64,000 bases of DNA from an uncultured Chloroflexia bacterium (GCA_963825525.1 CAWGTN010000002.1:608001-672000); one strand, 5' to 3'. Shown: positions 13,221 through 63,337, counted from the first letter of the stretch. Made by a program: numbers and translations. Notes: a model not told the origin generated them from the letters alone.

Positions 13221-13236
13221 TGCAGAACGCGTGCCG
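13221..13236 (-). promoter_or_regulatory. Putative sigma54 -24/-12 promoter (hemerythrin gene)
   Basis: Minus strand CGGCACGCGTTCTGCA (GG-N10-GC). Confidence 0.6.
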
Positions 13237-13429
13237 TCAGAGACGGCATGCCGAGGTGCGGGATCGACGGCGGAAAGGACGGACACAGCCGATCAGGCTA
13301 AAAATCATGTCAGCTGCCCGGATCACAGAGTGCTTGCGGCACAATGGGGGCCACTTGGGGATTGCGCTCGTGGCTAGGCAATCCATCGCGCCCCGCTGTC
13401 GGTCGAATCATGTAGCGAGATTGAGCCGG

Positions 13430-13816
13430 ATGACGTCAGACCAAGAGCCAGGCGCCGACCTGGACGTCGAAGAGGGCGGCGGGCCGCCAATCGGCACGGC
13501 ATGGACGCTGGAGGTTGGGGGCGATGAGAGGTGGTCCGCCGACCTGGAACACGCTGCCCCACTTCCCCGAGTCGGCGAGACGATCGAGTTGATCCTCGTG
13601 GACGGAGCTCGGCAACGCCTCCAGGTTCGCGAGGTCATCCACGTCCTTCAGCCTTCGGCGACTGACCGGCCGGCCGTGCGAGAGGAGACTTCGGGGCCGA
13701 ACTCCATCGTCGTTGACGGGGGCCCTGGCGCGACGCCGCGATTCCTGCGAGCGGGCCTGCCGCGGGTCGTGGCAGATCCGGGTGGCCCCGAGGGGGGTTC
13801 TGGCCAGGAGGAGTGA
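13430..13816 (+). CDS. Hypothetical protein
   Basis: Protein-like ORF MTSDQEPG...PLPRVGETIEL..LQVREVIHVLQPSA. No recognised family. Confidence 0.55.
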   Translation: MTSDQEPGADLDVEEGGGPPIGTAWTLEVGGDERWSADLEHAAPLPRVGETIELILVDGARQRLQVREVIHVLQPSATDRPAVREETSGPNSIVVDGGPGATPRFLRAGLPRVVADPGGPEGGSGQEE

Positions 13817-13845
13817 ATCGGGCCGCTGCAGCCGGTCGCAACGCT

Positions 13846-14117
13846 TCAACCGAGGAAGGAGTCCTCCAACCGCCACTGGTGATCTTGCCCGCACTCGATG
13901 CAATCGACGAGCATTTGGAGCCGCCCGAAGCGAGCGGCACGCCTGACAACTCGAACCCTGTGTCCGTCGCTCGTCCCGTCGCCGGACACACGACCATCAG
14001 CCGACGCAGCAGCCCCGCGAGTTCACTTTGGTCGTGGTGTTCATCGGCTGACGCCGGGTATCCCGCACGGGGTCGCCCAGGATGAATGGGGGCTTGATCC
14101 TCCCCATAAGCGTCCAT
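13846..14117 (-). CDS. Small Cys/His (Zn-finger-like) protein with one frameshift (~13920)
   Basis: MDAYGED..LMVVCPATGRATDTGFEL, then after a frame change QMLVDCIECGQDHQWRLEDSFLG*. GGAGG RBS. Confidence 0.6.
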
Positions 14118-14157
14118 CCAACCTCCCCCACAATTCACGATGACGAGGGATTGGAGA

Positions 14158-14173
14158 TGCACCCGCTGTGCCA
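14158..14173 (-). promoter_or_regulatory. Putative sigma54 -24/-12 promoter (small Cys protein)
   Basis: Minus strand TGGCACAGCGGGTGCA, ~40 nt upstream of ATG 14117. Confidence 0.62.
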
Positions 14174-14486
14174 AGAACGCCGTCTACGTCAGTCCCCACC
14201 GACGCGCATGTTTCACGCTCGGCAGCACGGCCGAACGTCCAGCCGTTGCAGCAGTGGTCGGGCCGGGCGGATCGACGCGAATCATGACTTCGAGCCAGAA
14301 CTCATGAGCAGATCTAGCCCTTCGGCCTCCTGGTAGCTAATCAGAAACGTGTTGGGCGCCCTGTCGAAGGAGCCCTGTCGTATCGGGAATGCCGAGCGAG
14401 CAACCCCATGCACGCCATCGCTCGCGCAGAAGAGATCCGCCCTCGTCGTCCCAGACCGTCTTCCGCACCTCGGCTACCCGGGAGTC

Positions 14487-14921
14487 TCAGAGCGGGGTCC
14501 GACGGAATGCCGCCGCTGCTGGTGTCGAGCGAAACGCCTGACCGTCGACTCGGTGGATATCGAACTCCCTGACGAATCCGTCAGCGATCTGAATGATCGC
14601 ATTGATGGCGGTTCCGTCAGCATCCTCTGCCACTCCCATGACCGGCAACGCTCCGGACGTAGGGCCCCACGTCAGGTCCTCGAGGGGCGGCGCGCCATCC
14701 GCGACGCGTACCCACATGGTCGGACAGTGATCAACGCACTCAGCCTCGACCACCGCGTCGATCATCTGCCGTTCGGCCATACGAGATTCGAGGGTCTCGT
14801 CCAAAAGGGCCCGGAAAGATCCCGCTCCCATTGCGAGAGCGGCCGTGGCGGATTCAGGTCTCGAGCCTTGTGCGATAGGGGTCCCAGCGTTATCCGCATC
14901 AGCTTCATTCCGCTCGTTCAC
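14487..14921 (-). CDS. Hypothetical protein (DUF6984-like)
   Basis: ECVDHCPTM...AEDADGTAINAIIQIADGFVREFDIHRVDG pattern. Less biased codon usage than the flanks. Confidence 0.5.
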   Translation of the reverse strand: MNERNEADADNAGTPIAQGSRPESATAALAMGAGSFRALLDETLESRMAERQMIDAVVEAECVDHCPTMWVRVADGAPPLEDLTWGPTSGALPVMGVAEDADGTAINAIIQIADGFVREFDIHRVDGQAFRSTPAAAAFRRTPL

Positions 14922-14981
14922 GCTCAGTCTCTGCCGCCGGAAGGCCCAGGTGCGTGGGGTGCCACCATGTTAGGAACGATC

Positions 14982-15413
14982 CTAGCCCCGGGGACGCGGC
15001 CACTCACCGCGTTCCAGCGCATCGAGCCGCTCCTCTGCGAACTGGTTAAACAACTCGACAGTCTCTCCTGCCTGCGAACCCGTCATGCGCTCGCTGATGG
15101 CTTGGGAGTGGACCTGAACCAATGAGGCTCCCTCCTCAAGTCCGACTGACCCTGGGCTGGCGGGCGCCATCTTCATCACCGCCGCGATGACCCACTCCAA
15201 GGGATACCATTCCTCGGGCCGGTCGCGGCCTGCTAGCTCAATGGCAACTAGGCCGCGATCGCGAGTTGCCCGGAGCCGGAATGCCGCCGTGCTAAGGACT
15301 ATCGAGGCATCATCGAAGTACGGGCCTGTAAGGCGCGACTCCATGGTCGCGCCGCTTTGCACCAACCGACGGAACGCGCGCGTTACGTCGTCTTCAAAGC
15401 TGGTTGTGGCCAT
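14982..15413 (-). CDS. Hypothetical protein
   Basis: ORF MATTSFEDD...FRLRATRDRG..EEWYPLEWV. Lower-GC region next to the tRNA 3' end. Confidence 0.55.
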   Translation of the reverse strand: MATTSFEDDVTRAFRRLVQSGATMESRLTGPYFDDASIVLSTAAFRLRATRDRGLVAIELAGRDRPEEWYPLEWVIAAVMKMAPASPGSVGLEEGASLVQVHSQAISERMTGSQAGETVELFNQFAEERLDALERGEWPRPRG

Positions 15414-15596
15414 GGCCTCACACCATCCGCCGCTGTCCGTTGACGTATCGCGCCACATGCCGAGGCTGCGAAGGACAAGAGAGTTCCACCGCGAAGTATC
15501 CGCTCGCCTGATAAGGAGAATTCGAGAGTACTAAAGAGTCGCCGCTCCGCATTCTATGGGCAGCACATGGCCGAATTGAGCGTGGAACGAGGGAGA

Positions 15597-15672
15597 TGGC
15601 GCGCCCGGAGGGATTCGAACCCCCGACCTGCTGATCCGAAGTCAGCTGCTCTATCCACTGAGCTACGGGCGC
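15597..15672 (-). tRNA. tRNA-Arg (anticodon TCG)
   Basis: Reverse complement GCGCCCGTAGCTCAGTGGATAGAGCAGCTGACTTCGGATCAGCAGGTCGGGGGTTCGAATCCCTCCGGGCGCGCCA. Anticodon arm GCTGA-CTTCGGA-TCAGC. CCA is encoded. Confidence 0.96.
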
Positions 15673-15789
15673 ACGGAGGAATCGTACCCGATGGCGTCCG
15701 AGGACAGCTGTCGAGGTCCCGGTGCGATGAGTCGTGCGAAGCGCGGGCGTCTAAGGTCACACACACCGCACTTCCTCGGATGGAGATCC

Positions 15790-16623
15790 ATGACAGTTCT
15801 GATGGAGGGGATCTCGTTCGGCGAGTCCCCGCGCTGGCACGACGGACGGCTCTGGTTCTCCGACTGGGGCGCGGGCCAGGTCATCGCACTCGATCGTGAG
15901 GGCAGCCACGAGGTCATCGTCAGCGTTCCGTCGTTCCCGATGTGCATCGACTTCCTGCCCGATGGACGCCTGCTGGTGGTGGATTCGACCCACGGGCGGC
16001 TTCTCCGTCGCGAGGCCGACGGAGCGCTCCTCACCCATGCCGACCTGGCGCCGATCTCTGACAAGCCATGGAACGACATCGCGGTCGACGGGCGTGGCAA
16101 TGCCTACGTCAACAATATCGGCTTCGACTTTCCGGACGGCGAGCCGGGACCGGGCTTCATCGTGCTCGTGACGCCCGATGGTGACGTGCGGCGCGTTGCC
16201 GATGACCTTGCCTTCCCGAATGGGATGGCGATCACGGCCGACGGCCGGGTCCTGCTGGTGGCGGAGTCCTACGCCAACCGCCTCACGGCCTACGACATCG
16301 GCCCCGACGGCGGGCTCATTGGTCGGCGCGTCTGGGCCGACACCCCTGACGATCATCCGGACGGCATCTGCATCGATGCCGAAGGCGCCGTCTGGTACGC
16401 CGATGTGGGCAACCAGCGCTGCGTCCGCGTGCGCGAGGGCGGCGAGGTGCTGGGGACCGTCGAGCTGGATCGCGGCGCGTTCGCCTGCGCCCTCAGCGAG
16501 GGTGATCACCCGGAGCTGTATGTCGTCGGTCAGCGGTGGGGCGGCCCGGAATCGGCGGAGCCCACCGGGCAGGTCGTGTCGTTCCCGGCACCGGCTCCTG
16601 GCGCCCGGAGGCCCGGCGCCTGA
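15790..16623 (+). CDS. SMP-30/gluconolactonase/LRE family protein
   Basis: FGESPRWHDGRLWFSDW, WNDIAVDGRGNAYV, LAFPNGMAIT and PDGICIDAEGAVW. GGAG RBS. Confidence 0.92.
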   Translation: MTVLMEGISFGESPRWHDGRLWFSDWGAGQVIALDREGSHEVIVSVPSFPMCIDFLPDGRLLVVDSTHGRLLRREADGALLTHADLAPISDKPWNDIAVDGRGNAYVNNIGFDFPDGEPGPGFIVLVTPDGDVRRVADDLAFPNGMAITADGRVLLVAESYANRLTAYDIGPDGGLIGRRVWADTPDDHPDGICIDAEGAVWYADVGNQRCVRVREGGEVLGTVELDRGAFACALSEGDHPELYVVGQRWGGPESAEPTGQVVSFPAPAPGARRPGA

Positions 16624-16630
16624 GCGATCG

Positions 16631-17059
16631 TCACCACAGGGCCAGGCCGGTCTCCTCGTCGGGCACACGGACCAGTGACACGCCGGTGAACTCGCGGATC
16701 ATGATCTCCGCCGCGAAGACCTCGCAGCCGCGGAGCAGGTGGCCGCCCACGGTGGCGCCATCGGCATCGGCGAAGGTGGCGTGCGCGTGGAGGAACGGGC
16801 GGTCGTCGCGCAGCGAGATATTGCCCAGGAATCCCACGATCTCGTGGTGCGTTCGGGACTCGAGCTCGCGGTAGCGGCGGTCGTGCTGCTCGTAGTAGGC
16901 GTAGGCCGCCCGTCGCACCGCGCCGATGACGGTCACCTGGGCCGCCACGACGCCATGCTCGGTGCAGAACCGCTCGATCTCCTCGACGAGGTCGCTCCCC
17001 GTCTCCAGACGGCCGACGAATCCTCGCCCGCTGCTGACCTCGGTCAATCCGGCTGGCAA
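16631..17059 (-). CDS. PPC domain (DUF296) protein
   Basis: FVGRLETGSDL..IGAV..EIVGFLGNIS..PFLHAHATF..GGHL. TTG start after AGGAGG. Confidence 0.85.
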   Translation of the reverse strand: MPAGLTEVSSGRGFVGRLETGSDLVEEIERFCTEHGVVAAQVTVIGAVRRAAYAYYEQHDRRYRELESRTHHEIVGFLGNISLRDDRPFLHAHATFADADGATVGGHLLRGCEVFAAEIMIREFTGVSLVRVPDEETGLALW

Positions 17060-17072
17060 CGTCCAGGTCCTC

Positions 17073-19610
17073 CTATTCGAACTGCTTGAGGTGGCGAACG
17101 ATCGGCAGCGAGGCGGCCACGCGCGCCGGATAGAGCCCCGCCAGTGCCGCCACGCCGGTTCCCACCAGGACCACGGCCACGAGCAGGCCCCACGGGAGCC
17201 GGATGCCAGCCGCCAGATCAGCCGATCCCCCACCGCTGACCAGCGCGACCGCCACCACCACCCCGGTGATGATGGCAAGGAATCCGGCGATGGCCCCCAT
17301 GATCGCCGCCTCGGCCACGACCATGGCCTGCACCTGCCCCACGGTCATGCCGTGAGCGCGCAGGACGGCGATCTCCCGGACCCGTTCGCTGATGCCGATC
17401 CCGAGCGTGTTGACGATCCCCAATGCGCCGATGACAACGGCGATGAGCGCAAGCACGTCGAACAGGCCAACCAGCCGATCCAGCGACTGCGCAAGGTCAC
17501 CGGCCAGGTCCCGCGCGGTGAGTGGCTGTGCGGCAAGCTGGGTCGCGGTATCGCGCACCGATGTCGCGAAGGCGGAGGGTGGGATATCGGGCTGGGCAAT
17601 CATCACCCACAGGGATGCGGCGTCGACCCCGAACAGGTCGCGGGCATCGGCGCTGTTGATGAGCAGCGCGCCGTCCGGGGTGCGAGCCGGAAGGGTGTAT
17701 TCGACGATGCCGGCCACGGTGAACGGATGCGGCTCGACGCCGGGCTGCCCGAGGGCGATCGAGTCGCCCACCTCGATCCCTTCGCGCGCGGCCAGGGATG
17801 CCGGGACCAGGACTGCACCGCCGTCGCGGAGATCGGCGTAGGCGTCCGCGCGTGCCGCCCCGGACACGATGAGCGCACCGGCATCCTGGAAGATGTTCGG
17901 GTCGATGCCCGCCAGGCTGACCTCCTCCTGGCCCGCGTCGGTGGCACGGACGGCGGGCAGCTCCAGGATGGGGCTGGCCACCTGGAGGCCGGGCGTGGCG
18001 ACGAACGTCGGGCGGAACAGCTCGATGTCCAGCGGCACGCTGCTGCGAATCGCGTTGCCGGCGGGAAGGATGGACGCCACCCAGCGCTCGGCACCGGCCC
18101 GCGCGGATTCGGCCACCGTGCCGAGCGCGACCACGGCCGCCAGCGCGATCATCATGGCTCCCACCGTCAGGCCCGTCCGAACCCGATCTCGCGACAGGTT
18201 TGCCCGTCCCAGCATGCCCTGCGCCCCGAAGAACCACTCGAACGGCCGCCCCACGATGCGGCCGAGCGGCTCGAGAATGTATGCCGTCGCCACAGCGCCG
18301 CCGAGCAGCAGGGCCAGGGAAAGGACGAGTGGCAGCACCGGCGTCTCGGCGCGCTCGATGGGGAACAGCAGGATGCCGGCGGTGACCACCAGGAGCTCGG
18401 CAACCAGGAGGGTCCGGAGACGTTCACCGAGTCCGTGCCGCGATCCGCGCGCTGACCGGAGTGCAGCCACGGGCGACAGTCGCGCCGCGCGCAATGCGGG
18501 AGCCACCGACCCAGCCAGCGTGACGCCGAGACCCAGGACGAAGGCCAGGATCAGGCCGCCGATGGGCAACGGCAGCCCAACGACCAATGCGGCGCGGGTC
18601 GAGGACAGGAAGCCGATCATGCCCGCCGCCAGGGCGATCCCCAGCACGATCCCCAGTCCGCTGCCCGCGATCCCGAGCGCGGCGCCCTGCCGCAGCACGA
18701 GCCCGAGCACCTGGCGCGACGTGGTGCCGGCCGCCCGCAGCAGGCCGTACTCGCGCGTCCGCTCCCCCACCGTCATGGCCAGTGTGTTGCCGACCAGGAA
18801 CGCGCCGACGACCATCGCCACCAGCCCGAACAGGAAGGCCACCGCCCCGAAGCTGACCTGGGCCGATGCGAGACGCTGCGCCGAATCGGCCGCCGTCTCC
18901 ACGATGTATGGCTCGTCCATTGCCTGGGTCACCTTGGCCAGCGGTCCGCTGACGTCGCCTTCGCCCAGGTCGAGATCCAGGTAGCGGATGGGCGCCGGAA
19001 CCTCGAACGAGTCGTCCACGGTCGATCGAGACACGACCATCACGTCGCCCCGCTCGAGGGCGGCGAAGCCCGTATCTGCCATGAGGCCGATGATCCGCAG
19101 CGGAGGCATCCCCTCCCGCCGGCCGTCCAGCCGCAGCTCGTCGCCGAGGCCCAGGTCGTGGCGCGCGGCCCACGACGCCGGCACGAGCGCATCGGTCGGG
19201 CTGTCCGGGCTGATGGCCACTCCCGCGGTCAGGGACGGCTGCCGAATCTGGCTGTCGACGTCGGGATCGATGCCGATGACCTGGAGCGTGAAGACCTGCT
19301 CGTTGTCGCCTGGCGCGGTGTGGACCACCAGCCGTCGCTCCGACACCGGTGCCGCGGTGCGGACCTCGGGGAGGGCGCGCAGTGCCTGGACCGTTCGCGG
19401 CGTGAACCCGGCCTCGTCGAAGGCCCGCAGCCTGACGTCGGCCGCGCCAAGGAGATCGGCGGTTGCGCTGCGGAGGGCGGCATCCGCGGACGCGCCGGTG
19501 ATCACGGTCGCGACGACCACGGCAACGCCGAGCGCCACGCCAACCACCGCCAGAGAGGTGCGCAGCGGGCGCGCGAGCAGCCCACGCCAGGCGAGACTCG
19601 CCAGACGCAT
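17073..19610 (-). CDS. FtsX-like ABC transporter permease (duplicated MacB/FtsX domains)
   Basis: LAWRGLLARPLRT, NTLAMTVGERTREYGLLRAAG, ERVREIAVLRAHG and LYPARVAA. Confidence 0.92.
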   Translation of the reverse strand: MRLASLAWRGLLARPLRTSLAVVGVALGVAVVVATVITGASADAALRSATADLLGAADVRLRAFDEAGFTPRTVQALRALPEVRTAAPVSERRLVVHTAPGDNEQVFTLQVIGIDPDVDSQIRQPSLTAGVAISPDSPTDALVPASWAARHDLGLGDELRLDGRREGMPPLRIIGLMADTGFAALERGDVMVVSRSTVDDSFEVPAPIRYLDLDLGEGDVSGPLAKVTQAMDEPYIVETAADSAQRLASAQVSFGAVAFLFGLVAMVVGAFLVGNTLAMTVGERTREYGLLRAAGTTSRQVLGLVLRQGAALGIAGSGLGIVLGIALAAGMIGFLSSTRAALVVGLPLPIGGLILAFVLGLGVTLAGSVAPALRAARLSPVAALRSARGSRHGLGERLRTLLVAELLVVTAGILLFPIERAETPVLPLVLSLALLLGGAVATAYILEPLGRIVGRPFEWFFGAQGMLGRANLSRDRVRTGLTVGAMMIALAAVVALGTVAESARAGAERWVASILPAGNAIRSSVPLDIELFRPTFVATPGLQVASPILELPAVRATDAGQEEVSLAGIDPNIFQDAGALIVSGAARADAYADLRDGGAVLVPASLAAREGIEVGDSIALGQPGVEPHPFTVAGIVEYTLPARTPDGALLINSADARDLFGVDAASLWVMIAQPDIPPSAFATSVRDTATQLAAQPLTARDLAGDLAQSLDRLVGLFDVLALIAVVIGALGIVNTLGIGISERVREIAVLRAHGMTVGQVQAMVVAEAAIMGAIAGFLAIITGVVVAVALVSGGGSADLAAGIRLPWGLLVAVVLVGTGVAALAGLYPARVAASLPIVRHLKQFE

Positions 19611-19616
19611 CGGCGG

Positions 19617-20363
19617 CTAGAGCCCCAGCTCGGCCAGGCGAGCGATCAGGGGGCGCGCCTGGTGGTCGGCCCGTCGACCGAGCGTGATCTGGTCGCGGAT
19701 CTCACCATCACGAACCACCAGGACGCGATCGGCGTAGGCGGCCGCGCGCGCGTCGTGGGTGACGAGCACCACGGTCTGGCCAAGGCGATCGGCCGAGTCC
19801 CAGAGGAGGTCCAGGATCTCGGCGCCGGTCGTGTAGTCGAGATTGCCGGTCGGCTCGTCCGCCAGCAGGATGGCCGGCTTTGTGGCGAGGGCCCGGGCCA
19901 GCGCGACCCGCTGCTGCTCGCCGGCCGAGAGCTGGTCGGGTCGGTGGTCGGCTTTGTCGCTCAGACCCACCATGGCGAGCAGCTCGCTGATCCGCTCGCG
20001 GTGGCGATTCGCACTGTCACCGGCGATGAGGAACGGGAGCGCCACGTTCTCGGCCACGCTGAGCAGCGGGATGAGGTTGAAGAACTGGAAGACGAAGCCG
20101 GTCTTCTCGCGACGGGTGAGCGTTCGCCGCTCGTCGTCGAGTCCGGAGATGCCGATGCCGTCGATGACCACCTCTCCCGACGTCGGCAGGTCGAGGCCGC
20201 CCAGCAAGTGGAGCATCGTCGACTTGCCCGATCCCGAGCTGCCCATGATGGCCACGAACTCGCCGGCGCTGACCTGGAGGGAGACGCCTCGGAGCGCCTC
20301 GACCTCGCCCTCGCCCAGGGCATAGCGCTTGACGAGGTCACGAGCCTCGAGGATGACGGGCAT
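19617..20363 (-). CDS. ABC transporter ATP-binding protein (LolD/MacB-like)
   Basis: GSSGSGKST, GFVFQFFNL, LSAGEQQRV and ILLADEPTGNLD. Confidence 0.95.
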   Translation of the reverse strand: MPVILEARDLVKRYALGEGEVEALRGVSLQVSAGEFVAIMGSSGSGKSTMLHLLGGLDLPTSGEVVIDGIGISGLDDERRTLTRREKTGFVFQFFNLIPLLSVAENVALPFLIAGDSANRHRERISELLAMVGLSDKADHRPDQLSAGEQQRVALARALATKPAILLADEPTGNLDYTTGAEILDLLWDSADRLGQTVVLVTHDARAAAYADRVLVVRDGEIRDQITLGRRADHQARPLIARLAELGL

Positions 20364-20401
20364 GGGGGCAGTCTACCGACGCGACAGGTCCGGGGGACCG
20401 G

Positions 20402-21376: not shown

Positions 21377-21537
21377 GAAAACCTCGTGTGTGGGTGCGTG
21401 GACGGGCGGCTCGAACGCCCACACCAACCCTATGGCGACCGGCCCGGCGGGTCAGTAGCCGACTGGTCCGGGTGCGGCCCATGACCCAAGCCCGTCCAGG
21501 TACTGGTCATGCCCCGTACCATTCGGTCACCTGACGT

Positions 21538-21553
21538 GGGCACGCAGCGTGCT
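21538..21553 (+). promoter_or_regulatory. Putative sigma54 -24/-12 promoter (receiver gene)
   Basis: GGGCACGCAGCGTGCT (GG-N10-GC), 12 nt before the in-frame GTG 21566. Confidence 0.5.
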
Positions 21554-21565
21554 GTGGAGGAGCGG

Positions 21566-21961
21566 GTGAAGCAGAGAGGCGCCGAGGCGCGCCACCACAC
21601 GGTCCTGGTCGTCGACGACGACGACAGCGTCCGGTCGTTCTTCGTCGAGGCCCTGACCGACGCCGGGCACTCGGTGGCCACCGCGGTGGACGGTGCCGAT
21701 GCGCTCGATCGACTCCAGGCCGGCAACGCCCCGTGTGTGGTCCTGACCGATCTCCGCATGCCACGCATGGATGGCTGGGAGCTGTCCCGCGCGGTCGCCA
21801 AGGATCCTCAGCTGGCGAGCATCCCGGTCGTCGTGGTCACCGGCGACAAGCTGCTCTCATTCACCTCACCGGCCCGGGACAAGCCGTGGTCCCCGGCCGA
21901 GCTGGATGCCATGGTCCAGCGCTCGTGCTCCCTGCACCGAACGGGCGGCGGCCGCCGCTGA
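21566..21961 (+). CDS. Single-domain response regulator (receiver)
   Basis: VLVVDDD..VLTDLRMPRMDGWEL..IPVVVVTG..KPW. The start may be 21509 or 21566. Confidence 0.85.
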   Translation: MKQRGAEARHHTVLVVDDDDSVRSFFVEALTDAGHSVATAVDGADALDRLQAGNAPCVVLTDLRMPRMDGWELSRAVAKDPQLASIPVVVVTGDKLLSFTSPARDKPWSPAELDAMVQRSCSLHRTGGGRR

Positions 21962-21968
21962 CCGTTCT

Positions 21969-23204
21969 CTAGGCCTCGCCCGTTGGCTCGGTCTCACGCG
22001 GGTCGGCGGCGTGCTCGGGGTCGTCCTCGATGCGCTCGGCAGCCACCGCCACCACCTCCTCGTGGGTGAGCTCGGGCCGCTCGCGGCGGACCTCATCGAG
22101 CACCTCGTCGACCTCCATCGCAGGCGTCTCGTCGATGGCACGCAGGTTCACGAAGTAGGTGAAGAACACGTTGAGCACGGCCAGCACCGGGATCCCAAAC
22201 AGCGCGCCCCACAGCCCCGCGATCTGTGAACCGACCAGGAGGCCCACCAGGACGAGGATGGGATGCATGCCCAACGCCTCACGCATGAGCTTCGGCTGGA
22301 GATAGTTGACCAGCACGGTCTGCACGATCAGGAGCAGCGGCGCCACGAAGATCAGGAGCCCTGGACTGAAGATGGCGGTCGCCAGGATCGGCGGCACGAG
22401 TGCCAGCGGCGGACCGAAGAACGGGATGAGCATGGCAATGGCCGAGATCGCAACCAGAAGGAATCCGTATGGCAGATCGGCCACCACGACCACGACGATC
22501 GTCAGCGCGGTCTGGACCGCGGCCAGGATGACCTGCGCCCGCAGGAACCCGCCGAAGGCATTCGACACGGTTCGCTGGAGGATCTCGTACTCGTCCGCGT
22601 AGCGCGATGGAATCACACGACCCAGCCGCGTGAGGATGCCGGCGCTGTCGGCAAGCATGTACAGGCTCAGGATGATGACGAGGACCAACGCCCCGAGAAC
22701 CGCGATCGTGACCGATGGCACATCGCCAAGGATCTCTAGGCCGATGCGTCCGACGGTCGACTCGACATCCCGGTACAGCCCCACGAGATCGGGGTTGAAG
22801 CGACCGAATGCAATGGCTCCCTCCCAGTCATTGAGGACGCCCTCGATACGAGCCCTCGTCAACGGGAAGTCCGCGGCCATCTCCCCCATCGACGCACCGA
22901 TCGAGCTTGCGGCGTAGAAGAGTACGAAGCCGCTGCCGAGGAGGGTGGCCGCGTAGACGACGCCGATGGCGGCGCCCCGCGAGAGCCAGCGGCGGTCGAC
23001 CACCCATCCGACGACCGGCGCCAGGATGAAGGCCAGCAGCCAGGCGACGAACAGGATGAGAAGGATCTGGAAGAACCCGTCCAGGATGCGAAGCAGCAGC
23101 CCGACGAGCAGAAGGGTCACGTAGATCGTGGCAACGACAAGGAACGCGGAGCGCCACCAGCGCTCGCGCTTTCCACGCGTCAGCTCGTCATCGGTTCCGT
23201 TCAC
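21969..23204 (-). CDS. AI-2E family transporter
   Basis: LLAFILAPVV, GFLRAQ, LIPFFGP, NYLQPKLM..LGMHP..GLWGALFGIP. Confidence 0.9.
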   Translation of the reverse strand: MNGTDDELTRGKRERWWRSAFLVVATIYVTLLLVGLLLRILDGFFQILLILFVAWLLAFILAPVVGWVVDRRWLSRGAAIGVVYAATLLGSGFVLFYAASSIGASMGEMAADFPLTRARIEGVLNDWEGAIAFGRFNPDLVGLYRDVESTVGRIGLEILGDVPSVTIAVLGALVLVIILSLYMLADSAGILTRLGRVIPSRYADEYEILQRTVSNAFGGFLRAQVILAAVQTALTIVVVVVADLPYGFLLVAISAIAMLIPFFGPPLALVPPILATAIFSPGLLIFVAPLLLIVQTVLVNYLQPKLMREALGMHPILVLVGLLVGSQIAGLWGALFGIPVLAVLNVFFTYFVNLRAIDETPAMEVDEVLDEVRRERPELTHEEVVAVAAERIEDDPEHAADPRETEPTGEA

Positions 23205-23238
23205 CCTGCCTCCGTTCGGTCGCCCGCCAGGCGGTCAA

Positions 23239-23254
23239 TGCACGGCCCGTGCCG
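23239..23254 (-). promoter_or_regulatory. Putative sigma54 -24/-12 promoter (AI-2E gene)
   Basis: Minus strand CGGCACGGGCCGTGCA, ~35 nt upstream of the start. Confidence 0.58.
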
Positions 23255-23263
23255 AACCGGACG

Positions 23264-23590
23264 TCAGGCAGGGAGCACCTCGACACGAGTAACCGGGGTG
23301 GACCGCAGATCACCGATGAGGAGTCGCTCACCCGGCACGATGCGTGGGACGGTCGTGGCCCAGCCGCTGGCGCGCCACGCGGTCCCCGGCACGCCGCCCC
23401 GCGGAAGGCGGCGCCACTGCACGCCGTCGTCACCGATCGAGAGCACATACGTCGAACCGGAGGCCGTCTTCGCGAGCACCACGGAGTTCATGACATCCCT
23501 CCCGCGCGCATCTTCCGATGTGCCGTCCACCGCGTCAATGATCCCGTCCAGGTCGGTGTCTCGGATGGCATCCTTGCGGCTTCGCAGCAC
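23264..23590 (-). CDS. Hypothetical protein
   Basis: Protein-like segment VVLAKTASGSTYVL...IVPGERLLIGDLRSTPVTRVEVL. Start uncertain. Confidence 0.5.
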   Translation of the reverse strand: MLRSRKDAIRDTDLDGIIDAVDGTSEDARGRDVMNSVVLAKTASGSTYVLSIGDDGVQWRRLPRGGVPGTAWRASGWATTVPRIVPGERLLIGDLRSTPVTRVEVLPA

Positions 23591-23604
23591 AGAGAGACCG
23601 CGCG

Positions 23605-24057: not shown

Positions 24058-24068
24058 CGGGCGTTGAC

Positions 24069-25205: not shown

Positions 25206-25208
25206 GCG

Positions 25209-25964: not shown

Positions 25965-26066
25965 GCCGCCAAGTGTATCCGCCTCCTTCTGTCAGAAACA
26001 ATACAGACGACATATGGTGCTCGCTCTATCGTCGCCGAACATCGTCCATGGCGCCGGAGGGAAACC

Positions 26067-37206: not shown

Positions 37207-37467
37207 TCAGTCGCGGCGCATCGAACGCAGGACGAACAGGACGAGGATCGAGCCGATCGTCGCGAGGACCAACGCGCCGAGCCACCCCGACGCCTCGTTC
37301 TGGTTGAGCACGTTGACCCACAGGAAGCCGCCGATAAAGCCGCCGACGATGCCCACCAGCATGGTGCCGATGCATCCCATTCGCTCCCGCCCCGGGACGA
37401 AGAAGCCCGCCAGCGCGCCGGCGAGCAGGCCGATGATGATCCAGCCAAAGATCCCGAGATCAGGCAT
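37207..37467 (-). CDS. GlsB/YeaQ/YmgE family stress-response membrane protein
   Basis: GIFGWIIIGLLAGALA..PG..GCIGTMLVGIVGGFIGG..ATIGSILVL. AAGGAG RBS. Confidence 0.9.
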   Translation of the reverse strand: MPDLGIFGWIIIGLLAGALAGFFVPGRERMGCIGTMLVGIVGGFIGGFLWVNVLNQNEASGWLGALVLATIGSILVLFVLRSMRRD

Positions 37468-37516: not shown

Positions 37517-37532
37517 TGCACGGCGTGTGCCG
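37517..37532 (-). promoter_or_regulatory. Putative sigma54 -24/-12 promoter (YeaQ/YmgE gene)
   Basis: Minus strand CGGCACACGCCGTGCA, ~50 nt upstream of the ATG. Confidence 0.6.
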
Positions 37533-48161: not shown

Positions 48162-48174
48162 TCCGGCCGGACCG

Positions 48175-48879: not shown

Positions 48880-48891
48880 ACTATCGGATTC

Positions 48892-51419: not shown

Positions 51420-51438
51420 CAGGCTGATCGTCCTGCGG

Positions 51439-51616: not shown

Positions 51617-51633
51617 GCGAGTCAGGGGGCTCA

Positions 51634-52798: not shown

Positions 52799-52886
52799 GG
52801 GCTACGCGGATGCTAGCCGGGATCGGCGCTCGCCGCCCGAGGACCACCGGCGCGATCGATGCGGCCATTCGGATACGCTGGCGGGC

Positions 52887-53415: not shown

Positions 53416-53425
53416 ACCCGCGGGG

Positions 53426-53441
53426 TGGCACGCCGGTTGCC
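53426..53441 (+). promoter_or_regulatory. Sigma54 -24/-12 promoter (topoisomerase IB gene), consensus match
   Basis: TGGCACGCCGGTTGCC = TGGCAC-N5-TTGC. Predicted +1 is ~53452, next to ATG 53454. Confidence 0.72.
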
Positions 53442-53453
53442 ATGCAGCGTCAC

Positions 53454-54539
53454 ATGACACTCGAGCTCGACGATCCACAGGCGGCCGCGGAAGACGCGGG
53501 GCTTCGCTACGTGTCCGACCTGATGCCGGGCGTTCGCCGTCGACGCGCCGGGAAGGGCTTCACGTACATCGGGCCGGACGGCAGCAGGATCACCGACGAC
53601 GCTCGGATCGCCTGGTTCCGTCGCCTCGCCATCCCCCCGGCCTGGACGGACGTGTGGATCTCTCCGGTCAAGAACGGGCACATCCAGGCCATCGGACGCG
53701 ACGCGCGGGGACGAAAGCAATACCGCTATCACCCGCGATGGCGCGAGGTGCGCGACCAGGCGAAGTACGGCCGGTTGATCGAGTTCGCGCGGGCACTACC
53801 CCGGATCCGGCGTCGGACCGAGCGCGACCTTCGACGCCGGGGCCTTCCGCGCGAGAAGGTGCTGGCACTCGTGATCCGGCTGCTCGAGGCCTCGCTCATC
53901 CGGGTCGGCAACGACGAGTACGCGCGAGAGAACCGCAGCTACGGCCTGTCGACGATGCGCGACCGCCACGTCGAGGTTCGTGGCGCGCGGATCCGGTTCC
54001 GGTTCCGCGGCAAGTCGGGGAAGGAGCACGAGGTCGAAGTGCTCGACCGCCGGCTGGCCCGCCTCGTCAAGCAATGCCAGGAGCTGCCCGGCCAGGAGCT
54101 CTTCCAGTACCTGGACTCCGACGGGGCTCGGCAGGATGTGACGTCGGGCGACGTCAACGACTATCTGCGCGAGGCCAGCGGTGACGACTTCACTGCCAAG
54201 GACTTCAGGACGTGGGCGGGCACCGTCGCCGCATCCATGGCACTCCAGGAGTTCGTCGAGATCGACGACGAGGCCGGACGAAAGAAGGCGATCGTGCGGG
54301 CAATCGAGGACGTGGCCGAACAGCTCGGCAACACGCCGACCGTGTGTCGGGCCTGCTACGTCCATCCGGACGTGCTCGACTCCTATCTGGACGGGACGTT
54401 GATCGAAGCACTGTCCGAGCGTGCCCGTGGGATCGGGCGCGGGGCCCACGCCCTCCGGCGCGAGGAAGCCGCCGTGCTGGGGCTCCTCCAGGCACGTCTG
54501 GCACGCGAACGCCGAGCGGGACGCCGCGAAGCCGCCTGA
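53454..54539 (+). CDS. DNA topoisomerase IB (bacterial, poxvirus-like)
   Basis: LAIPPAWTDVWI, GRKQYRYH, IRVGNDEY (Arg), FRGKSGK (Lys), AKDFRTW and LGNTPTVCRACYVHP (Tyr). Confidence 0.93.
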   Translation: MTLELDDPQAAAEDAGLRYVSDLMPGVRRRRAGKGFTYIGPDGSRITDDARIAWFRRLAIPPAWTDVWISPVKNGHIQAIGRDARGRKQYRYHPRWREVRDQAKYGRLIEFARALPRIRRRTERDLRRRGLPREKVLALVIRLLEASLIRVGNDEYARENRSYGLSTMRDRHVEVRGARIRFRFRGKSGKEHEVEVLDRRLARLVKQCQELPGQELFQYLDSDGARQDVTSGDVNDYLREASGDDFTAKDFRTWAGTVAASMALQEFVEIDDEAGRKKAIVRAIEDVAEQLGNTPTVCRACYVHPDVLDSYLDGTLIEALSERARGIGRGAHALRREEAAVLGLLQARLARERRAGRREAA

Positions 54540-54545
54540 CGTCGA

Positions 54546-54926: not shown

Positions 54927-54935
54927 GCGTTCAGC

Positions 54936-59729: not shown

Positions 59730-59750
59730 ACCGTGAATTCTACGGCCACG

Positions 59751-62514
59751 TCAGCCATCCGACGTCACTAGGGTGCGGGAGCGCGTCGGTACCGGGACGC
59801 CTCCGCCGCCGCCGCCTCCGCCGCCTCCGCCTCCGCCGCCGCCTCCGCCGCCTCCGCCGCCACCGCTCGGCTTGGGGGTCGGCTCGGCGCTCGGCTCGGC
59901 CGATGACGATGGGCTGGGCCGCGGGGTGGCCACGCGCTCACCGCACACCGAGGGGAAGCCTGACTCGCCGTAGATGGGTGCGATCTGGAACAGGACGCGC
60001 TCGTCATCGGCGTACGTGGACGGGTCACCTCGGGCTCCGGTCTGTCCGTTGACGACGCGATCTGCCCAGGTGTCTGCCCCTTCGATCCAGTTCTGCGGAC
60101 GGTCCGGCGTGGCCTGGCCCAAGTACTGCTCGAGGTCCAGGCAGCCCTTGGTGTGCAGGTTGTCGAGGCCAGGCACCGTTCCTTCGAGGAACGGAAGGGT
60201 GATGATCTTCCCGCACGAGTTCGTGGCCGCCAAGCCGGTCCAGCGACAGACGGGCGCCGTGACGATGCCATCCGGCTGCGGGAAGCTGGTCTGCGGGACG
60301 GGAGCCTGGCCGTTCCAGTCCCACGGGTTGTTGAGCGCAAGGTCCATGAACTCGTGCCACAGGAAGAGCGGTCCATCGGCGCTGAAGAGGCCGCCGGAGA
60401 ACTCGTTCGAAAGCGACTCCTGGTTGTTATTGCCCATCCAGACGCCCGACAGCGAGGCTGCCGGGAATGTATCCGAAGCCGGAGACGTCTCGGAAGTCGT
60501 TCGTGGTCCCGGTCTTGAAGCCGGCCGGGCGGCGCTGGCCGTCCGGCGTGATGAGCTGCGCGCGCTCGCCCCACAGCAGGTTCCGGGCGGGGTCGGTATT
60601 GCCCTCGAGGATGTAATGCGGCAGATATGCCTCGGCCGGGGTCATCGGATTCGTGACTGTTGGACCGTTGTCCTCGCGGGTGTAGATCACGCGATTGTCG
60701 CGGTCGCGAATCTCGATGATCGTCGTGGCCGGGTTGAGCTGGCCCTCCTGCGCGAAGGTCGTGTATGCCTGCGTCATGTTCGTCAGGTTGACCGGCACGG
60801 AGCCCAGCGCCAGGGAGAGGCCGGGATCCTGGTCCATGATGTACTCGGCGCTGGCGATGCCCAGCTACTCGCTGAACTCGGCCGTGGTCTGCGACCCGAC
60901 CAGGTACTGCATCATCACTGACGGGATGTTGAGGGAGTAGCGCAGGGCGTCCAGCGCGAGCACCGGACCGTGCTCCTTGATGTCGGCGTTCGTCGGCCGG
61001 TAGGACGTCTCCTCGGTCAGCCCGAACTGGGTCATGGAGTCGACGAACATCGTGGCCACGGTGGCGTCACGTGACTGGAATGCCGAGGCGTACGTGATCG
61101 GCTTGAAGGCTGATCCCGGCTGGCGTCGGCCGAGCCCGGCCACGTCGAACTGGCCCTGGACCCGCGGATCCTCGCGATTTCGATAGTCGACGCTGCCCAC
61201 GTACGAGACGATCTCGCCGGTGGCCGAATCGATGGCAACCAGCGCCGAGTTGTTCACGTTGAAGCCGGCCAAGGTCTCCACCCACTTCGCCACCAGCCGC
61301 TTCGCCTCCTGCTGGAGCGGCAGGTCGAGGGTCGTCTTGATTCGATACCCGCCGGTGAGAACCTCGAGCGCAGGATCCGTCACACCGGGCAGGGTGCCAA
61401 TGATGCGCTCGGCCTCCTTGCGCACCCGGAAGCTGAAATGCGGCTCGCGCAGGAGGCTCGTGAGACGGCTCGGGTTCATCTCGACCCACGAGGTGTTGCG
61501 CGCGACGCGCGCCTCGGCCGCCGTGATGTAGCCCTCCTCGACCATCGCTCCAAGGACGAGGTTGCGCTCGCGGAGCGCATCGGCTGCCCCCGCCTCGGGG
61601 TCATCAAGGGTGGAGTTCGGGTTCTGGTAGGGGTCGAGGAATGACGGCGCCTGCGGCAGAGCGGCGAGGAAGGCGGCCTGAGCGACCGTCATCTGCTCGA
61701 GGTCCTGGAGCCCGAAGTAGTTCGCGGCGGCGGCCTTGATGCCGTACGAGCCATTCCCGTAGTAGATGAGGTTCAGGTATGTCTCGAGGATCTTCTCCTT
61801 GCCCTCACGGCCCGGATACGCCGCGGTGACCTGCATCGCCAAGATGTTCTCGCGAATCTTGTCCTCGATGGCGGTCGAGTTATTGGGCTCGGGCGGCTGG
61901 CAGACATCGGTCTCCTCCTCGGCCGGATCCTCCTCGGTCACCGGAGCATCGGGATCGATCTCGCCGACGCTGGCCTCAGGTGTCGCGCTGGGGTCGACCT
62001 GGTTGACACCCTCCTCCTTCAGGACGCGGGCGTAGTCGATGACCTGCTGGGTGATGGTCGATGCGCCCTGCACGATCCGTCCCTCCTCGAGGTTGCGGAG
62101 CGCGGCGCGGACAATGCCCTGGAAGTCGACCCCGTTGTTGTCCCAGAACGTTCGGTCCTCGCTGGCGACGGTCGCCTGCCAGATGTGGTCGGGCAGGGTG
62201 GCGAACGTGACGGCCTCTCGGTTCTGGCACTCGAAGCGTGCCAGCAGCTCGTTGCCGGTGCGGTCGTAGACGTAGGTCGACTGCTGGGGCTCGATGCCAT
62301 CCAGGACATTCGGGGCGGGGAGGTCCGACGCGAAGTAGTTGTAGGCGGCCAGCATGCCACCCGCCGTGCCGAGGATCGATCCGGTGAACATCAGCCCGAA
62401 CACGCCGAGCGTGACGAGCATGAAGGTTGCAAGCCCACGGCGCTGCCCGCCGCGTCGCGTGGTGCGGCGCGTCATCATCAGATGACGTCGGCGCCGCTGG
62501 AGAGCCGGATGCAT
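59751..62514 (-). CDS. Class A penicillin-binding protein (transglycosylase/transpeptidase); frameshifts ~60870 and ~60450
   Basis: SEDRTF, QGASTITQQ, LETYLNLIYYGN, RQPGSAFKP, YSLN and FKTGTTN across three frames. Poly-Gly tail. Confidence 0.88.
59801..59865 (-). repeat. GGC/GGA trinucleotide run (poly-Gly tail of the PBP)
   Basis: ctccgccgccgccgcctccg... on the plus strand, encoding about 22 consecutive Gly. Confidence 0.85.
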
Positions 62515-62561
62515 CGGGCGAAGGGTACCAGTCGTGCGGGGCGCGGTCGAATGCGCGCCGC

Positions 62562-63200
62562 TCAGCGGATGACGCGAAGGACTCGTTCGTCGAGCAGCAT
62601 GATCAGGACGGCGCCACCGACCAGGAATGGCCCGAACGGGATGTACGTGCGCAGCCCCACCCGACGGGTGGCCAGCAGCACCAGGCTGGTTCCTGCCGAC
62701 AGAAATGCGGCGGCGAACAGGGCGCTGAAGATCGACGGCCAGCCGAGCATGAGCCCGATGGGCGCCACCAGGTACAGGTCACCGAGCGCAAGCCCCCCGC
62801 GGACGATGAGCGCCAACGCCCCGAGGAACCCCACGGCGGCCGCCGCACCGACCAGCGCCATCACGGGGTCGACCGCCGGATTGAACGGCACGAAGGCGAA
62901 GCCCAACAGGATGAGCGGATCCAGGACGAGATGCGGGAGGCGCCGCTGCTCGAGATCCGTGGCCGTCAGGACGAGCAGCAGGCCGAGGAGGACGAGGTAG
63001 GCTGCGGTGGCCCACCACGGCAGCGCGGAACGTCCCGCGATTCCGGCCGCCACCAGTCCACTCACCAGCGCCAGCACGACGGTGCGCCAGCCAGGCGACC
63101 GCCGCCGCGCTTCGTCACTCGGCCACACGCTGGCGAGGCGTTCGGCCAGCGCACCGGCAACCGCAAAGGCCGCCCCGATGCCGATGATCGCCGGATTCAC
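62562..63200 (-). CDS. A24 family prepilin peptidase (peptidase domain only)
   Basis: ATDLEQRRLP (Asp1), GLALGDLYL (Asp2) and IPFGPFL. No N-terminal CxxC methylase domain. Confidence 0.82.
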   Translation of the reverse strand: MNPAIIGIGAAFAVAGALAERLASVWPSDEARRRSPGWRTVVLALVSGLVAAGIAGRSALPWWATAAYLVLLGLLLVLTATDLEQRRLPHLVLDPLILLGFAFVPFNPAVDPVMALVGAAAAVGFLGALALIVRGGLALGDLYLVAPIGLMLGWPSIFSALFAAAFLSAGTSLVLLATRRVGLRTYIPFGPFLVGGAVLIMLLDERVLRVIR

Positions 63201-63321
63201 GCTCGTCTTCGCCCTCGCTGCGTTCGGTGGCCACGCGCCCGGTGCGTCGCGGCACCGCCCATCGTACGAGCCATGCGGGGGGCGGCCATAGCCCGATCGT
63301 CCACCTCGCACAGCGCGAATC

Positions 63322-63337
63322 TGGCACGCCGGATGCG
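63322..63337 (+). promoter_or_regulatory. Putative sigma54 -24/-12 promoter (csbD)
   Basis: TGGCACGCCGGATGCG, nearly identical to the TopoIB motif. Confidence 0.68.

What the first reader, a model, noticed from the sequence alone, without database searches (positions are those of the whole stretch)
13221..63337. Dispersed sigma54-type regulon of general-stress genes (seven -24/-12 promoters)
Seen: seven intergenic motifs GGCAC-N6-TGC with exact GG-N10-GC spacing. Each is on the sense strand 12-100 nt upstream of a gene: hemerythrin (13221-36, -), small Cys protein (14158-73, -), receiver (21538-53, +), AI-2E (23239-54, -), YeaQ/YmgE (37517-32, -), TopoIB (53426-41, +) and CsbD (63322-37, +). 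Weaker candidates lie at 13337 (+) and 40680 (+). A rough estimate at 70% GC gives well under one such hit by chance in ~5-6 kb of correctly oriented intergenic DNA. Established: this is the RpoN consensus (TGGCAC-N5-TTGC), and CsbD, YeaQ/YmgE and HHE proteins are classic members of SigB/RpoS/EcfG general-stress regulons. Inference: this lineage may run its general stress or dormancy programme through sigma54 instead of an alternative sigma70. No rpoN or enhancer-binding protein gene is in the window.
Basis: partly seen in the sequence, partly recalled or inferred. Interest (0 to 1): 0.88.

Follow-up and report, generated by a model that had tools for sequence, protein, structure and literature searches.

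The report
Conserved sigma-54-type promoters before stress genes
Seven genes in this stretch of an uncultured soil Chloroflexota genome, several of them typical stress or dormancy genes, are each preceded by the same short DNA signal that looks like a sigma-54 promoter and is conserved in related genomes, but the sigma-54 gene itself could not be looked for.

Summary
GGCAC-N6-TGC occurs 9 times in the window. Seven hits lie in about 9.9 kb of intergenic DNA, where shuffles give 0.63-0.68. Each is sense-oriented, 13-53 nt before a start codon. Only the N6 spacing is enriched.

The window comes from Chloroflexota, class Ca. Limnocylindria. In 26 related MAG loci the motif is a phylogenetic footprint:
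- Receiver gene: exact in 19 loci, GGCAT in 3.
- YeaQ orthologues: 4 of 4.

Positions not imposed by the search fit the recalled sigma-54 consensus: G after GGCAC in 29 of 35 sites, A/T after TGC in 32 of 35. The motif is asymmetric, which argues against a dimer operator. TopoIB's conserved start codon lies 13 nt after the motif with no ribosome-binding site. That fits a sigma-54-type start site and a near-leaderless mRNA.

Not shown: rpoN or an activator. Neither is in the window or the loci, and whole genomes were out of reach. No shared upstream activator site was found. The "general stress via sigma-54" reading is therefore plausible and partly supported, not proven.

The parts
13222..13235 (-). 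Motif GGCACGCGTTCTGC before the hemerythrin / PA2171-like gene. Predicted start site near 13210.
   Evidence: flanks.
12607..13182 (-). Hemerythrin HHE-domain protein. The start is ATG 13182 or, more likely, ATG 13122. It is related to the PA2171 ribosome-binding persister family.
   Evidence: Pfam PF01814, 1.3e-18. NCBIfam NF053874 scores 141 bits, below its 190-bit cutoff, and model position 1 aligns with residue 21.
14159..14172 (-). Motif GGCACAGCGGGTGC before a short, uncertain ORF.
13997..14107 (-). Candidate 36-aa ORF ending in GCCVG, with no family match. Whether it is a real gene is unproven.
   Evidence: No Pfam or NCBIfam match. No tblastn hit in the loci.
21539..21552 (+). Motif GGCACGCAGCGTGC before the single-domain receiver. 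This is the most conserved site.
   Evidence: Exact in 19 loci plus the window, GGCAT in 3 loci, and one locus with TGG in place of TGC.
21566..21961 (+). Single-domain response-regulator receiver. The conserved start codon is GTG 21566.
   Evidence: PF00072. The start codon is conserved in L001, L002, L006 and L019.
21450..21471 (+). Near-invariant 22-nt block, 67-88 nt upstream of the receiver motif. It could be an activator-binding site or an operator. It occurs only at this locus.
   Evidence: Alignment A1 has 10 invariant columns here. The block is unique in the window. Its 9-nt core occurs once each in 18 of the 27 loci; in L020 it lies outside the receiver context.
23240..23253 (-). Motif GGCACGGGCCGTGC before the AI-2E transporter. 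It begins 10 nt after the stop codon of the upstream gene.
   Evidence: Conserved only in the closest relatives: L001 and L008 exact; L002, L006 and L019 GGCAT.
21969..23204 (-). AI-2E (PerM/YtvI-like) family transporter.
   Evidence: PF01594, 8e-49.
37518..37531 (-). Motif GGCACACGCCGTGC before the YeaQ/YmgE gene.
   Evidence: All 4 YeaQ orthologues in the loci carry the motif 31-52 nt upstream.
37207..37467 (-). Transglycosylase-associated (YeaQ/YmgE/GlsB) small membrane protein.
   Evidence: PF04226; NF007771.
53427..53440 (+). Motif GGCACGCCGGTTGC inside the 38-nt spacer between the NUDIX gene and TopoIB.
53454..54539 (+). Bacterial DNA topoisomerase IB. Its conserved start, ATG 53454, lies 13 nt after the motif, with no ribosome-binding site.
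   Evidence: PF01028 and PF21338. 10 of the 12 orthologues I fetched begin M-[TA]-[LIM]-E-x-[DK]D(P), aligned to this ATG.
63323..63336 (+). Motif GGCACGCCGGATGC before csbD.
63390..63575 (+). CsbD-like small stress protein.
   Evidence: PF05532, 2.9e-18.

Best explanation
The seven sites are sigma-54-type (-24/-12) promoters of a dispersed regulon in a member of Chloroflexota, class Ca. Limnocylindria.

Proposed mechanism (inferred, not shown):
- RNA polymerase carrying a sigma-54 (RpoN) homologue binds the GG and GC doublets, which lie one helical turn apart, and forms a closed complex.
- An AAA+ activator opens the complex in response to a signal. It may act without a shared upstream binding site.
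- Transcription starts about 12-14 nt after the GC.
- The resulting mRNAs either carry a 25-90-nt leader (hemerythrin, AI-2E, YeaQ, CsbD) or are near-leaderless (TopoIB, receiver).

The targets are small membrane and cytoplasmic stress or dormancy-type proteins plus a single-domain receiver. The receiver is the most conserved target and may feed back on the pathway.

Shown here: the motif, its statistics, its conservation and its geometry. Inferred: the sigma factor, the activator, the start sites and the inducing signal.
For: - Enrichment: 7 intergenic hits against 0.63-0.68 in shuffles. 0 of 3000 shuffles reached 7 in each; 1 of 2000 did.
- Spacing: only N6 is enriched, in the window (7 intergenic, 2 coding) and in the loci (35 intergenic, 14 coding). 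Other spacings give 0-6 intergenic hits.
- Unimposed positions, 35 distinct sites: G after GGCAC in 29, A/T after TGC in 32, in DNA of about 68-70% G+C. These match the recalled consensus TGGCACG-N4-TTGCW.
- Asymmetry: the first G is required. Only 4 sense-oriented sites within 120 nt of a start lack it, against 36 exact ones. Its mirror position is C in just 2 of 35 sites.
- Footprint: in the 22-sequence alignment of the receiver upstream region, mean column identity is 52%, yet GGCA and TGC are invariant.
- Regulon conservation at non-syntenic places: 4 of 4 YeaQ orthologues carry the motif, as do 5 of 14 orthologues of a 120-aa unknown family, there about 13 nt before the start.
- TopoIB geometry: the 38-nt spacer holds the motif 13 nt before the orthologue-supported start codon. 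There is no ribosome-binding site and no -10 hexamer.
- Lineage: sigma-54 and its activators were reported in some Chloroflexi (PMC3162934, passages).
Against: - No rpoN or activator domain or signature was found in the window or in the six-frame scan of the window plus 27 loci. That is only about 0.44 Mb of largely syntenic DNA.
- Two consensus positions are not kept. T before GG occurs in 4 of 35 sites (C in 21). T at -15 occurs in 7 of 35 (G in 17).
- About half of the sites have extra dyad symmetry, GCACG-N3-CGTGC (C at position 10 in 24 of 35, G at position 11 in 17 of 35). A dimeric regulator could use that.
- In four cases with the start codon 13 nt after the motif, a GGAG-like ribosome-binding sequence lies between motif and start: the window, L001 and L019 receivers, and the L008 unknown-family gene (scripts 31 and 33). 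That sequence would be useless if transcription started there.
- No shared upstream dyad was found among the seven sites (observed maximum 4 of 7, the same as the null).
- The sense-orientation count is inflated by divergent intergenic regions. Only 3 window sites sit between same-strand genes.
- Gene calls are my own and contain at least one error: 13436-13642(-) is spurious.
Confidence: 0.7

Rival explanations
1. The motif is the operator of a dimeric transcription factor (a repressor or activator) that binds a partly palindromic site, GCACG-N3-CGTGC, in the promoter or 5' leader of a stress regulon. Transcription itself would come from ordinary sigma-70-family promoters nearby.
For: - The core GCA-N7-TGC is a perfect 3-bp inverted repeat. 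The inner positions extend it in about half of the sites (C at position 10 in 24 of 35, G at position 11 in 17 of 35).
- GGAG-like sequences lie between the motif and the start codon in four close-spaced cases.
- A conserved (G/T)ACCAT lies 15-18 nt upstream of the receiver motif in most loci and could be a -10 element.
- A Crp-type HTH protein (25209-25964) is encoded in the window.
- No rpoN or activator was seen.
Against: - The element is asymmetric. The outer G is required and is never mirrored: C at the mirror position in 2 of 35 sites, A/T in 32 of 35.
- Ten positions and the spacing coincide with the sigma-54 consensus, which would be a remarkable accident.
- TopoIB has no room for another promoter that would give a translatable mRNA. 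The spacer is 38 nt, with no ribosome-binding site and no -10 hexamer.
- No sigma-70-type promoter was found near the four sites in 12500-24500 (1 found, 1.0 expected, and not at a site).
Confidence: 0.14
2. The motif is a promoter read by some other, possibly lineage-specific, sigma factor or RNA polymerase-associated factor in a lineage without rpoN. It would resemble the sigma-54 element only by convergence.
For: - rpoN is not shown here, and sigma-54 is patchy in Chloroflexi.
- Two consensus positions, T at -26 and T at -15, are not kept.
- In distant relatives the AI-2E gene uses a different element, TGC(C/G)ATGAT, 12-16 nt before the start. In L008 the two elements overlap on the same TGC, so promoter types interconvert easily here.
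Against: - No known sigma-70-family factor uses two blocks only 6 nt apart.
- The match to the sigma-54 consensus is close at the positions that matter most: GG, GC, G after CAC and W after GC.
Confidence: 0.08
3. Chance clustering of a G+C-rich word in G+C-rich intergenic DNA.
For: - The whole-window count (9 against 4.1 expected) is only marginal: 2 of 100 shuffles reached 9.
- One of 2000 intergenic shuffles reached 7.
Against: - 0 of 6000 further shuffles reached 7.
- The enrichment is specific to one spacing.
- The core is invariant across 22 diverged orthologous upstream regions, and the motif recurs before YeaQ orthologues at other genomic places.
Confidence: 0.01

Closest known systems
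Sigma-54 (RpoN) -24/-12 promoters. Consensus TGGCACG-N4-TTGCW, recalled from Barrios et al. 1999 and not seen here. The motif is discussed in PMC3162934 (passages).
   Same: GG and GC lie exactly 10 nt apart. GGCAC(G) and TGC(W) blocks are present. The spacing is rigid. The element is oriented and close to the start of the gene. A/T enrichment follows directly after the GC.
   Different: T before GG and T at -15 are not conserved, and C/G and G are preferred there. Neither rpoN, an activator nor start sites are shown. Some targets would be near-leaderless.
Sigma-54 programmes with a single activator that needs no DNA site: Chlamydia CtcC and Helicobacter FlgR, both lacking a DNA-binding domain. 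Borrelia and Chlamydia each have one activator (PMC3162934, passages).
   Same: A dispersed set of promoters without a detectable shared upstream activator site. That would suit one global, site-independent activator driving one programme.
   Different: Here the activator is unknown. The receiver promoter does have a strongly conserved upstream block. The extrapolated regulon size is much larger.
General stress regulons of sigma-70-family factors (SigB, RpoS, EcfG). Membership of csbD and yeaQ-type genes is recalled, not checked here.
   Same: The gene content is similar: CsbD, YeaQ/YmgE, and a hemerythrin-domain protein of the PA2171 type. [quoted passage not shown]
   Different: The promoter architecture is -24/-12, not -35/-10. 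Induction by stress is not shown.

Membership tests
Sigma-54-dependent promoter | Invariant GG and GC doublets exactly 10 nt apart | tested here: met
   All seven sites have them. Only the N6 spacing is enriched. GG and GC mismatches are rare among the sense-oriented intergenic sites.
Sigma-54-dependent promoter | Extended consensus around the doublets (TGGCACG ... TTGCW; recalled) | tested here: inconclusive
   G after CAC in 29 of 35 sites and W after GC in 32 of 35 fit the consensus. T before GG in 4 of 35 and T at -15 in 7 of 35 do not.
Sigma-54-dependent promoter | Transcription start about 12 nt after the GC | not testable with these tools
   No transcript data are available. Indirect evidence: the conserved start codons of TopoIB and the receiver lie 13 nt after the motif, and TopoIB has no ribosome-binding site.
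Sigma-54-dependent promoter | rpoN present in the genome | not testable with these tools
   Not in the 70 window ORFs. No RpoN-box in the six frames of the window plus 27 loci. Some Chloroflexi have sigma-54.
Sigma-54-dependent promoter | AAA+ enhancer-binding activator (GAFTGA type) present | not testable with these tools
   No PF00158 match in the window. No GAFTGA, ESELFGH or activator-type Walker A signature in the window or loci.
Sigma-54-dependent promoter | Upstream activator sites about 80-150 bp upstream | tested here: inconclusive
   The receiver site has a near-invariant block 67-88 nt upstream. No dyad is shared by the seven sites.
General stress / dormancy regulon | Members are hallmark stress proteins | tested here: met
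   CsbD, Transgly_assoc (YeaQ) and hemerythrin. The hemerythrin is PA2171-family-like at 141 bits, below the 190-bit cutoff. TopoIB, the AI-2E transporter and the receiver are not hallmark members.
General stress / dormancy regulon | Co-induction under stress or starvation | not testable with these tools
   No expression data are available.
Palindromic operator of a dimeric regulator | Two-fold symmetric conservation | tested here: not met
   The outer G is required but its mirror position is C in only 2 of 35 sites. The inner symmetry is only partial.

The most novel reading that the evidence does not exclude
In a whole class of uncultured soil Chloroflexota, sigma-54 rather than a sigma-70-family factor is the master sigma of a large stress or dormancy programme. 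The programme would comprise on the order of 100 or more promoters, extrapolated from 7 per 64 kb here and about 1 per 30 kb outside the receiver/AI-2E locus in relatives. An activator that needs no shared DNA site would switch it on. Part of its output would be leaderless mRNAs, a combination not described for sigma-54.
Probability: 0.3. Interest if true: 0.72.

Novelty: new variant of a known kind. Interest (0 to 1): 0.52.

Why it matters
Sigma-54 is usually linked to nitrogen use, flagella and the cell envelope, and only 'some Chloroflexi' were known to have it (PMC3162934, passages). A conserved sigma-54-type regulon in front of CsbD, YeaQ, a persister-type hemerythrin, TopoIB and a receiver would have three consequences:
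- It would give a first regulatory handle on how abundant, uncultured soil Limnocylindria enter or survive stress.
- It would add an ATP-gated, all-or-none switch to the known ways of wiring a general stress response.
- It would provide a simple sequence marker for finding the rest of the programme in MAGs and for reading metatranscriptomes.

My literature searches found no paper on sigma-54 in Limnocylindria or on a sigma-54 regulon containing csbD. They covered only the held library.

Tried and rejected
- Extended -10 reading. I tested whether the TGC is the TGn of a sigma-70 promoter. Distant relatives do have TGC(C/G)ATGAT 12-16 nt before the AI-2E start. The window's seven sites lack a hexamer with A at position 2 and T at position 6, so this reading is rejected for them.
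- RNA element. There is no Rfam match at gathering score in the window apart from two tRNAs. Only sub-threshold noise appears around the receiver site. RNAalifold finds just the trivial 3-bp GCA/TGC pairing with no covariation.
- Shared upstream activator site. A dyad search of the 220 nt upstream of the seven sites gave a maximum of 4 of 7, the same as in shuffles. CTGACGT lies upstream of three sites, but one copy is a stop-codon context and the word occurs 17 times in the window, so this is left open.
- Sigma-70 consensus scan of 12500-24500. One hit against 1.0 expected, and not at a site.
- rpoN or activator in the readable DNA. None found.
- Literature on sigma-54 in Limnocylindria or Chloroflexota. 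Nothing specific.
- Finding a Limnocylindria RpoN through the protein search. Considered and not attempted. Only the best 120 hits are listed, so a query from another phylum would not reach them.
They do not match the core.
- Technical. One search timed out and was rerun. One search was rejected for a malformed search term and was rerun.


Full report
**1. The observation**

The pattern GGCAC-N6-TGC occurs nine times in the window. Seven hits are at the reported places. The other two, at 36024(-) and 41498(-), lie inside coding sequence.

For the window as a whole this is only marginal: 4.12 expected, and 2 of 100 shuffles reached 9. The signal lies in where the hits are.

Using my own codon-usage gene calls, checked against Pfam, 9,894 nt in 57 segments are intergenic. 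Those segments hold 7 hits. The 54,163 nt of coding DNA hold 2.

Shuffling the intergenic segments gave:
- mean 0.63, with 1 of 2000 dinucleotide shuffles reaching 7;
- mean 0.68, with 0 of 3000 mononucleotide shuffles reaching 7 and a maximum of 5;
- mean 0.63, with 0 of 3000 dinucleotide shuffles reaching 7 and a maximum of 5.

The gene calls are imperfect. The call at 13436-13642(-) is spurious, because a real gene, 13430-13816(+), lies on the other strand. No motif hit changes class because of this.

Among spacings N2 to N11, only N6 is enriched in intergenic DNA. The window gives 7 intergenic and 2 coding hits at N6, and 0-2 intergenic hits at each other spacing.

**2. The genes behind the sites**

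Pfam and NCBIfam identify the downstream genes as follows:
- A hemerythrin HHE protein. It resembles the PA2171 ribosome-binding persister family at 141 bits, below the 190-bit cutoff.
- A single-domain receiver.
- An AI-2E transporter.
- A YeaQ/YmgE (Transgly_assoc) protein.
- A bacterial topoisomerase IB.
- A CsbD protein.

The ORF after site 2 is uncertain. It is a 36-aa ORF with high third-position G+C and no family match.

The distance from the motif to the start codon is 13-53 nt. For the hemerythrin it is 99 nt if the internal ATG 13122 is the start, as the family model suggests.

**3. The organism and its relatives**

One scan of genome contigs with the AI-2E protein returned 27 loci. 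Of these, 26 are Chloroflexota, mostly labelled Candidatus Limnocylindria, at 45-83% protein identity. The last, L027, is unrelated. The window therefore comes from an uncultured member of that class (taxonomy).

**4. Conservation**

In the 26 loci (355,798 nt) the exact motif occurs 35 times in intergenic DNA and 14 times in coding DNA. Again only N6 stands out.

*Receiver gene.* This gene lies convergent with AI-2E.
- The exact motif is upstream in 19 loci and in the window.
- GGCAT-N6-TGC is present in L003, L008 and L023.
- GGCAC-N6-TGG is present in L015.
- In a 22-sequence alignment of this upstream region, mean column identity is 52%, yet GGCA and TGC are invariant.

*Other genes.*
- All four YeaQ orthologues found in the loci carry the motif 31-52 nt upstream. 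They sit at genomic places different from the window's copy.
- A 120-aa family of unknown function has a window copy at 13430-13816(+). Its orthologues carry the motif about 13 nt before the start in 5 of 14 loci, but the window copy does not.
- A 44-aa membrane peptide carries it in L022 and L023.
- AI-2E itself carries it only in the closest relatives: L001 and L008 exact, and L002, L006 and L019 with GGCAT. More distant relatives have TGC(C/G)ATGAT 12-16 nt before the start, which looks like an extended -10 element of a leaderless sigma-70-type promoter.
- No orthologues of the hemerythrin, CsbD or TopoIB genes lay within the fetched loci. Conservation of those three sites is therefore untested.

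**5. What kind of signal it is**

The 36 sense-oriented sites within 130 nt of a called start give 35 distinct sequences. Their composition at positions the search did not impose is:
- After GGCAC: G in 29 of 35.
- After TGC: A or T in 32 of 35, in DNA of about 68-70% G+C.
- The next two bases are also A/T-enriched.

These match the sigma-54 consensus TGGCACG-N4-TTGCW, which I recall from the literature and did not see here.

Two consensus positions are not kept:
- The base before GG is C in 21 sites, G in 10 and T in 4.
- The base before TGC is G in 17, T in 7, A in 6 and C in 5.

A one-mismatch scan shows that only C to T at the fifth position (GGCAT) is tolerated among sense-oriented intergenic sites: 15 of 18 such hits are sense-oriented. 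Changes in GG or GC are rare there.

The element is asymmetric. The outer G is required, with only 4 sense-oriented sites lacking it against 36 exact ones. Its mirror position is C in just 2 of 35. This argues against a symmetric dimer operator. About half of the sites do show extra inner symmetry, GCACG-N3-CGTGC.

**6. Geometry**

The clearest case is TopoIB.
- The spacer between the NUDIX stop codon (53415) and the TopoIB start is 38 nt.
- It contains the 14-nt motif 11 nt after the stop and 13 nt before ATG 53454.
- That ATG is the conserved N-terminus. 10 of the 12 orthologues I fetched begin M-[TA]-[LIM]-E-x-[DK]D(P) at this point, and most of the 120 listed hits are 359-361 aa long.
- No ribosome-binding sequence and no -10 hexamer lie between the motif and the start.

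A translatable mRNA must therefore begin at or just before the ATG. That places GG and GC at about -25/-24 and -13/-12, which is the sigma-54 geometry.

The same 13-nt distance recurs at:
- the receiver in the window's own clade, where the start codon is conserved in the window, L001, L002, L006 and L019;
- the unknown 120-aa family.

One point counts against this. In four of these cases a GGAG-like sequence lies between the motif and the start codon. It would be pointless in a transcript that starts after it.

**7. What is missing**

- No Sigma54 or activator domain was found in the 70 window ORFs.
- A six-frame scan of the window and all 27 loci found no RpoN-box, GAFTGA, ESELFGH or activator-type Walker A signature.
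- This covers only about 0.44 Mb of largely syntenic DNA, so it says little about the genomes.
- Whole genomes could not be read.
- Francke et al. 2011 (PMC3162934, passages read) found sigma-54 and its activators in 'some Chloroflexi' and in no Actinobacteria or Cyanobacteria. Presence in this class is therefore plausible but not given.
- Searches of the held literature found nothing on sigma-54 in Limnocylindria and no sigma-54 regulon containing csbD in this sense.
- No upstream dyad is shared by the seven sites.
- The receiver promoter alone has a near-invariant 22-nt block 67-88 nt upstream, followed by covarying GGTCC/GGACC or GGTAC/GTACC repeats.
- Activators without a DNA-binding domain are known, such as CtcC and FlgR (same paper, passage). 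One of these would fit a regulon with no common upstream site.

**8. Verdict**

The motif is real, non-random and conserved across a bacterial class. It behaves like a directional promoter element with sigma-54 architecture.

I rate sigma-54-type promoters as the best explanation at about 0.7. The rivals are:
- an asymmetric operator, 0.14;
- a different, convergent promoter type, 0.08;
- chance, 0.01.

The functional label rests on gene content only: CsbD, YeaQ, and a PA2171-like hemerythrin. PA2171 promotes persister formation by blocking translation and division in P. aeruginosa (PMC13041383, abstract). The claim that sigma-54 stands in for a sigma-70-family stress sigma is untested.

As a find it is a new variant of a known kind. 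The promoter class is familiar, while the regulon content, the lineage and the possible leaderless outputs are not.

Noticed in passing
window 21450-21471 (+); the same block occurs once in each related locus: A 22-nt block, GGTCAGTAGCCGASTSGTCCGG, is more conserved than the flanking genes. It lies between the divergent CAP-domain/ABC operon and the receiver gene. Covarying GGTCC/GGACC or GGTAC/GTACC repeats follow it. There is no Rfam match and no consensus RNA fold. It could be an activator site or an operator.
   Followed up: partly
Upstream of the AI-2E orthologues in L003, L010-L013, L015-L018 and L021-L024; L008 5959-5980: Promoter turnover. Distant relatives have TGC(C/G)ATGAT 12-16 nt before the AI-2E start, which looks like an extended -10 element of a leaderless promoter, instead of the -24/-12 motif. 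In L008 the two elements overlap on the same TGC.
   Followed up: partly
window 13430-13816 (+): A gene of an unannotated ~120-aa family, with conserved GGGPP...WTLEV...LRAGLPRVV and no Pfam or NCBIfam match. It has homologues in 14 loci, usually divergent from AI-2E. Five of them carry the motif about 13 nt upstream, but the window's copy does not.
   Followed up: partly
window 49684-50581 (-) and 51634-52798 (-): Two neighbouring transporter genes look frameshifted. The ABC ATPase matches profile positions 2-51 in one frame and 98-137 in another. The MacB-like permease has its first 78 profile positions in a different frame from the rest. These are either pseudogenes or assembly errors.
   Followed up: partly
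window about 13200-15600, next to tRNA-Arg at 15597-15672: A stretch of lower G+C (0.636 against 0.67-0.71 elsewhere). It has weak coding signal and ORFs with no family match, including a possible split zinc-ribbon-like small ORF at 13846-13996. It may be an island or a hypervariable region. Two of the seven motif sites lie in it.
   Followed up: no
window 14186, 21531 and 23261 (upstream of sites 2, 3 and 4): The heptamer CTGACGT lies 1-16 nt upstream of three of the seven motifs. One copy overlaps a stop codon, and the word occurs 17 times in the window. Its significance is unclear.
   Followed up: partly
window 55964-57898 (-): A 644-aa ORF with strong coding signal but no Pfam or NCBIfam match. 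It lies in an operon-like row with YbjN-like, nucleotidyl-transferase and QRPTase-like genes.
   Followed up: no
L008 and L026 (record titles): Two MAG contigs are labelled 'uncultured Steroidobacteraceae' (a proteobacterial family). L008 carries a Limnocylindria-like locus, with 72% identity to the AI-2E protein and the same neighbours and motifs. This is probably a binning or labelling error for that contig. L026 (45% identity) shows no such context and was not checked.
   Followed up: no
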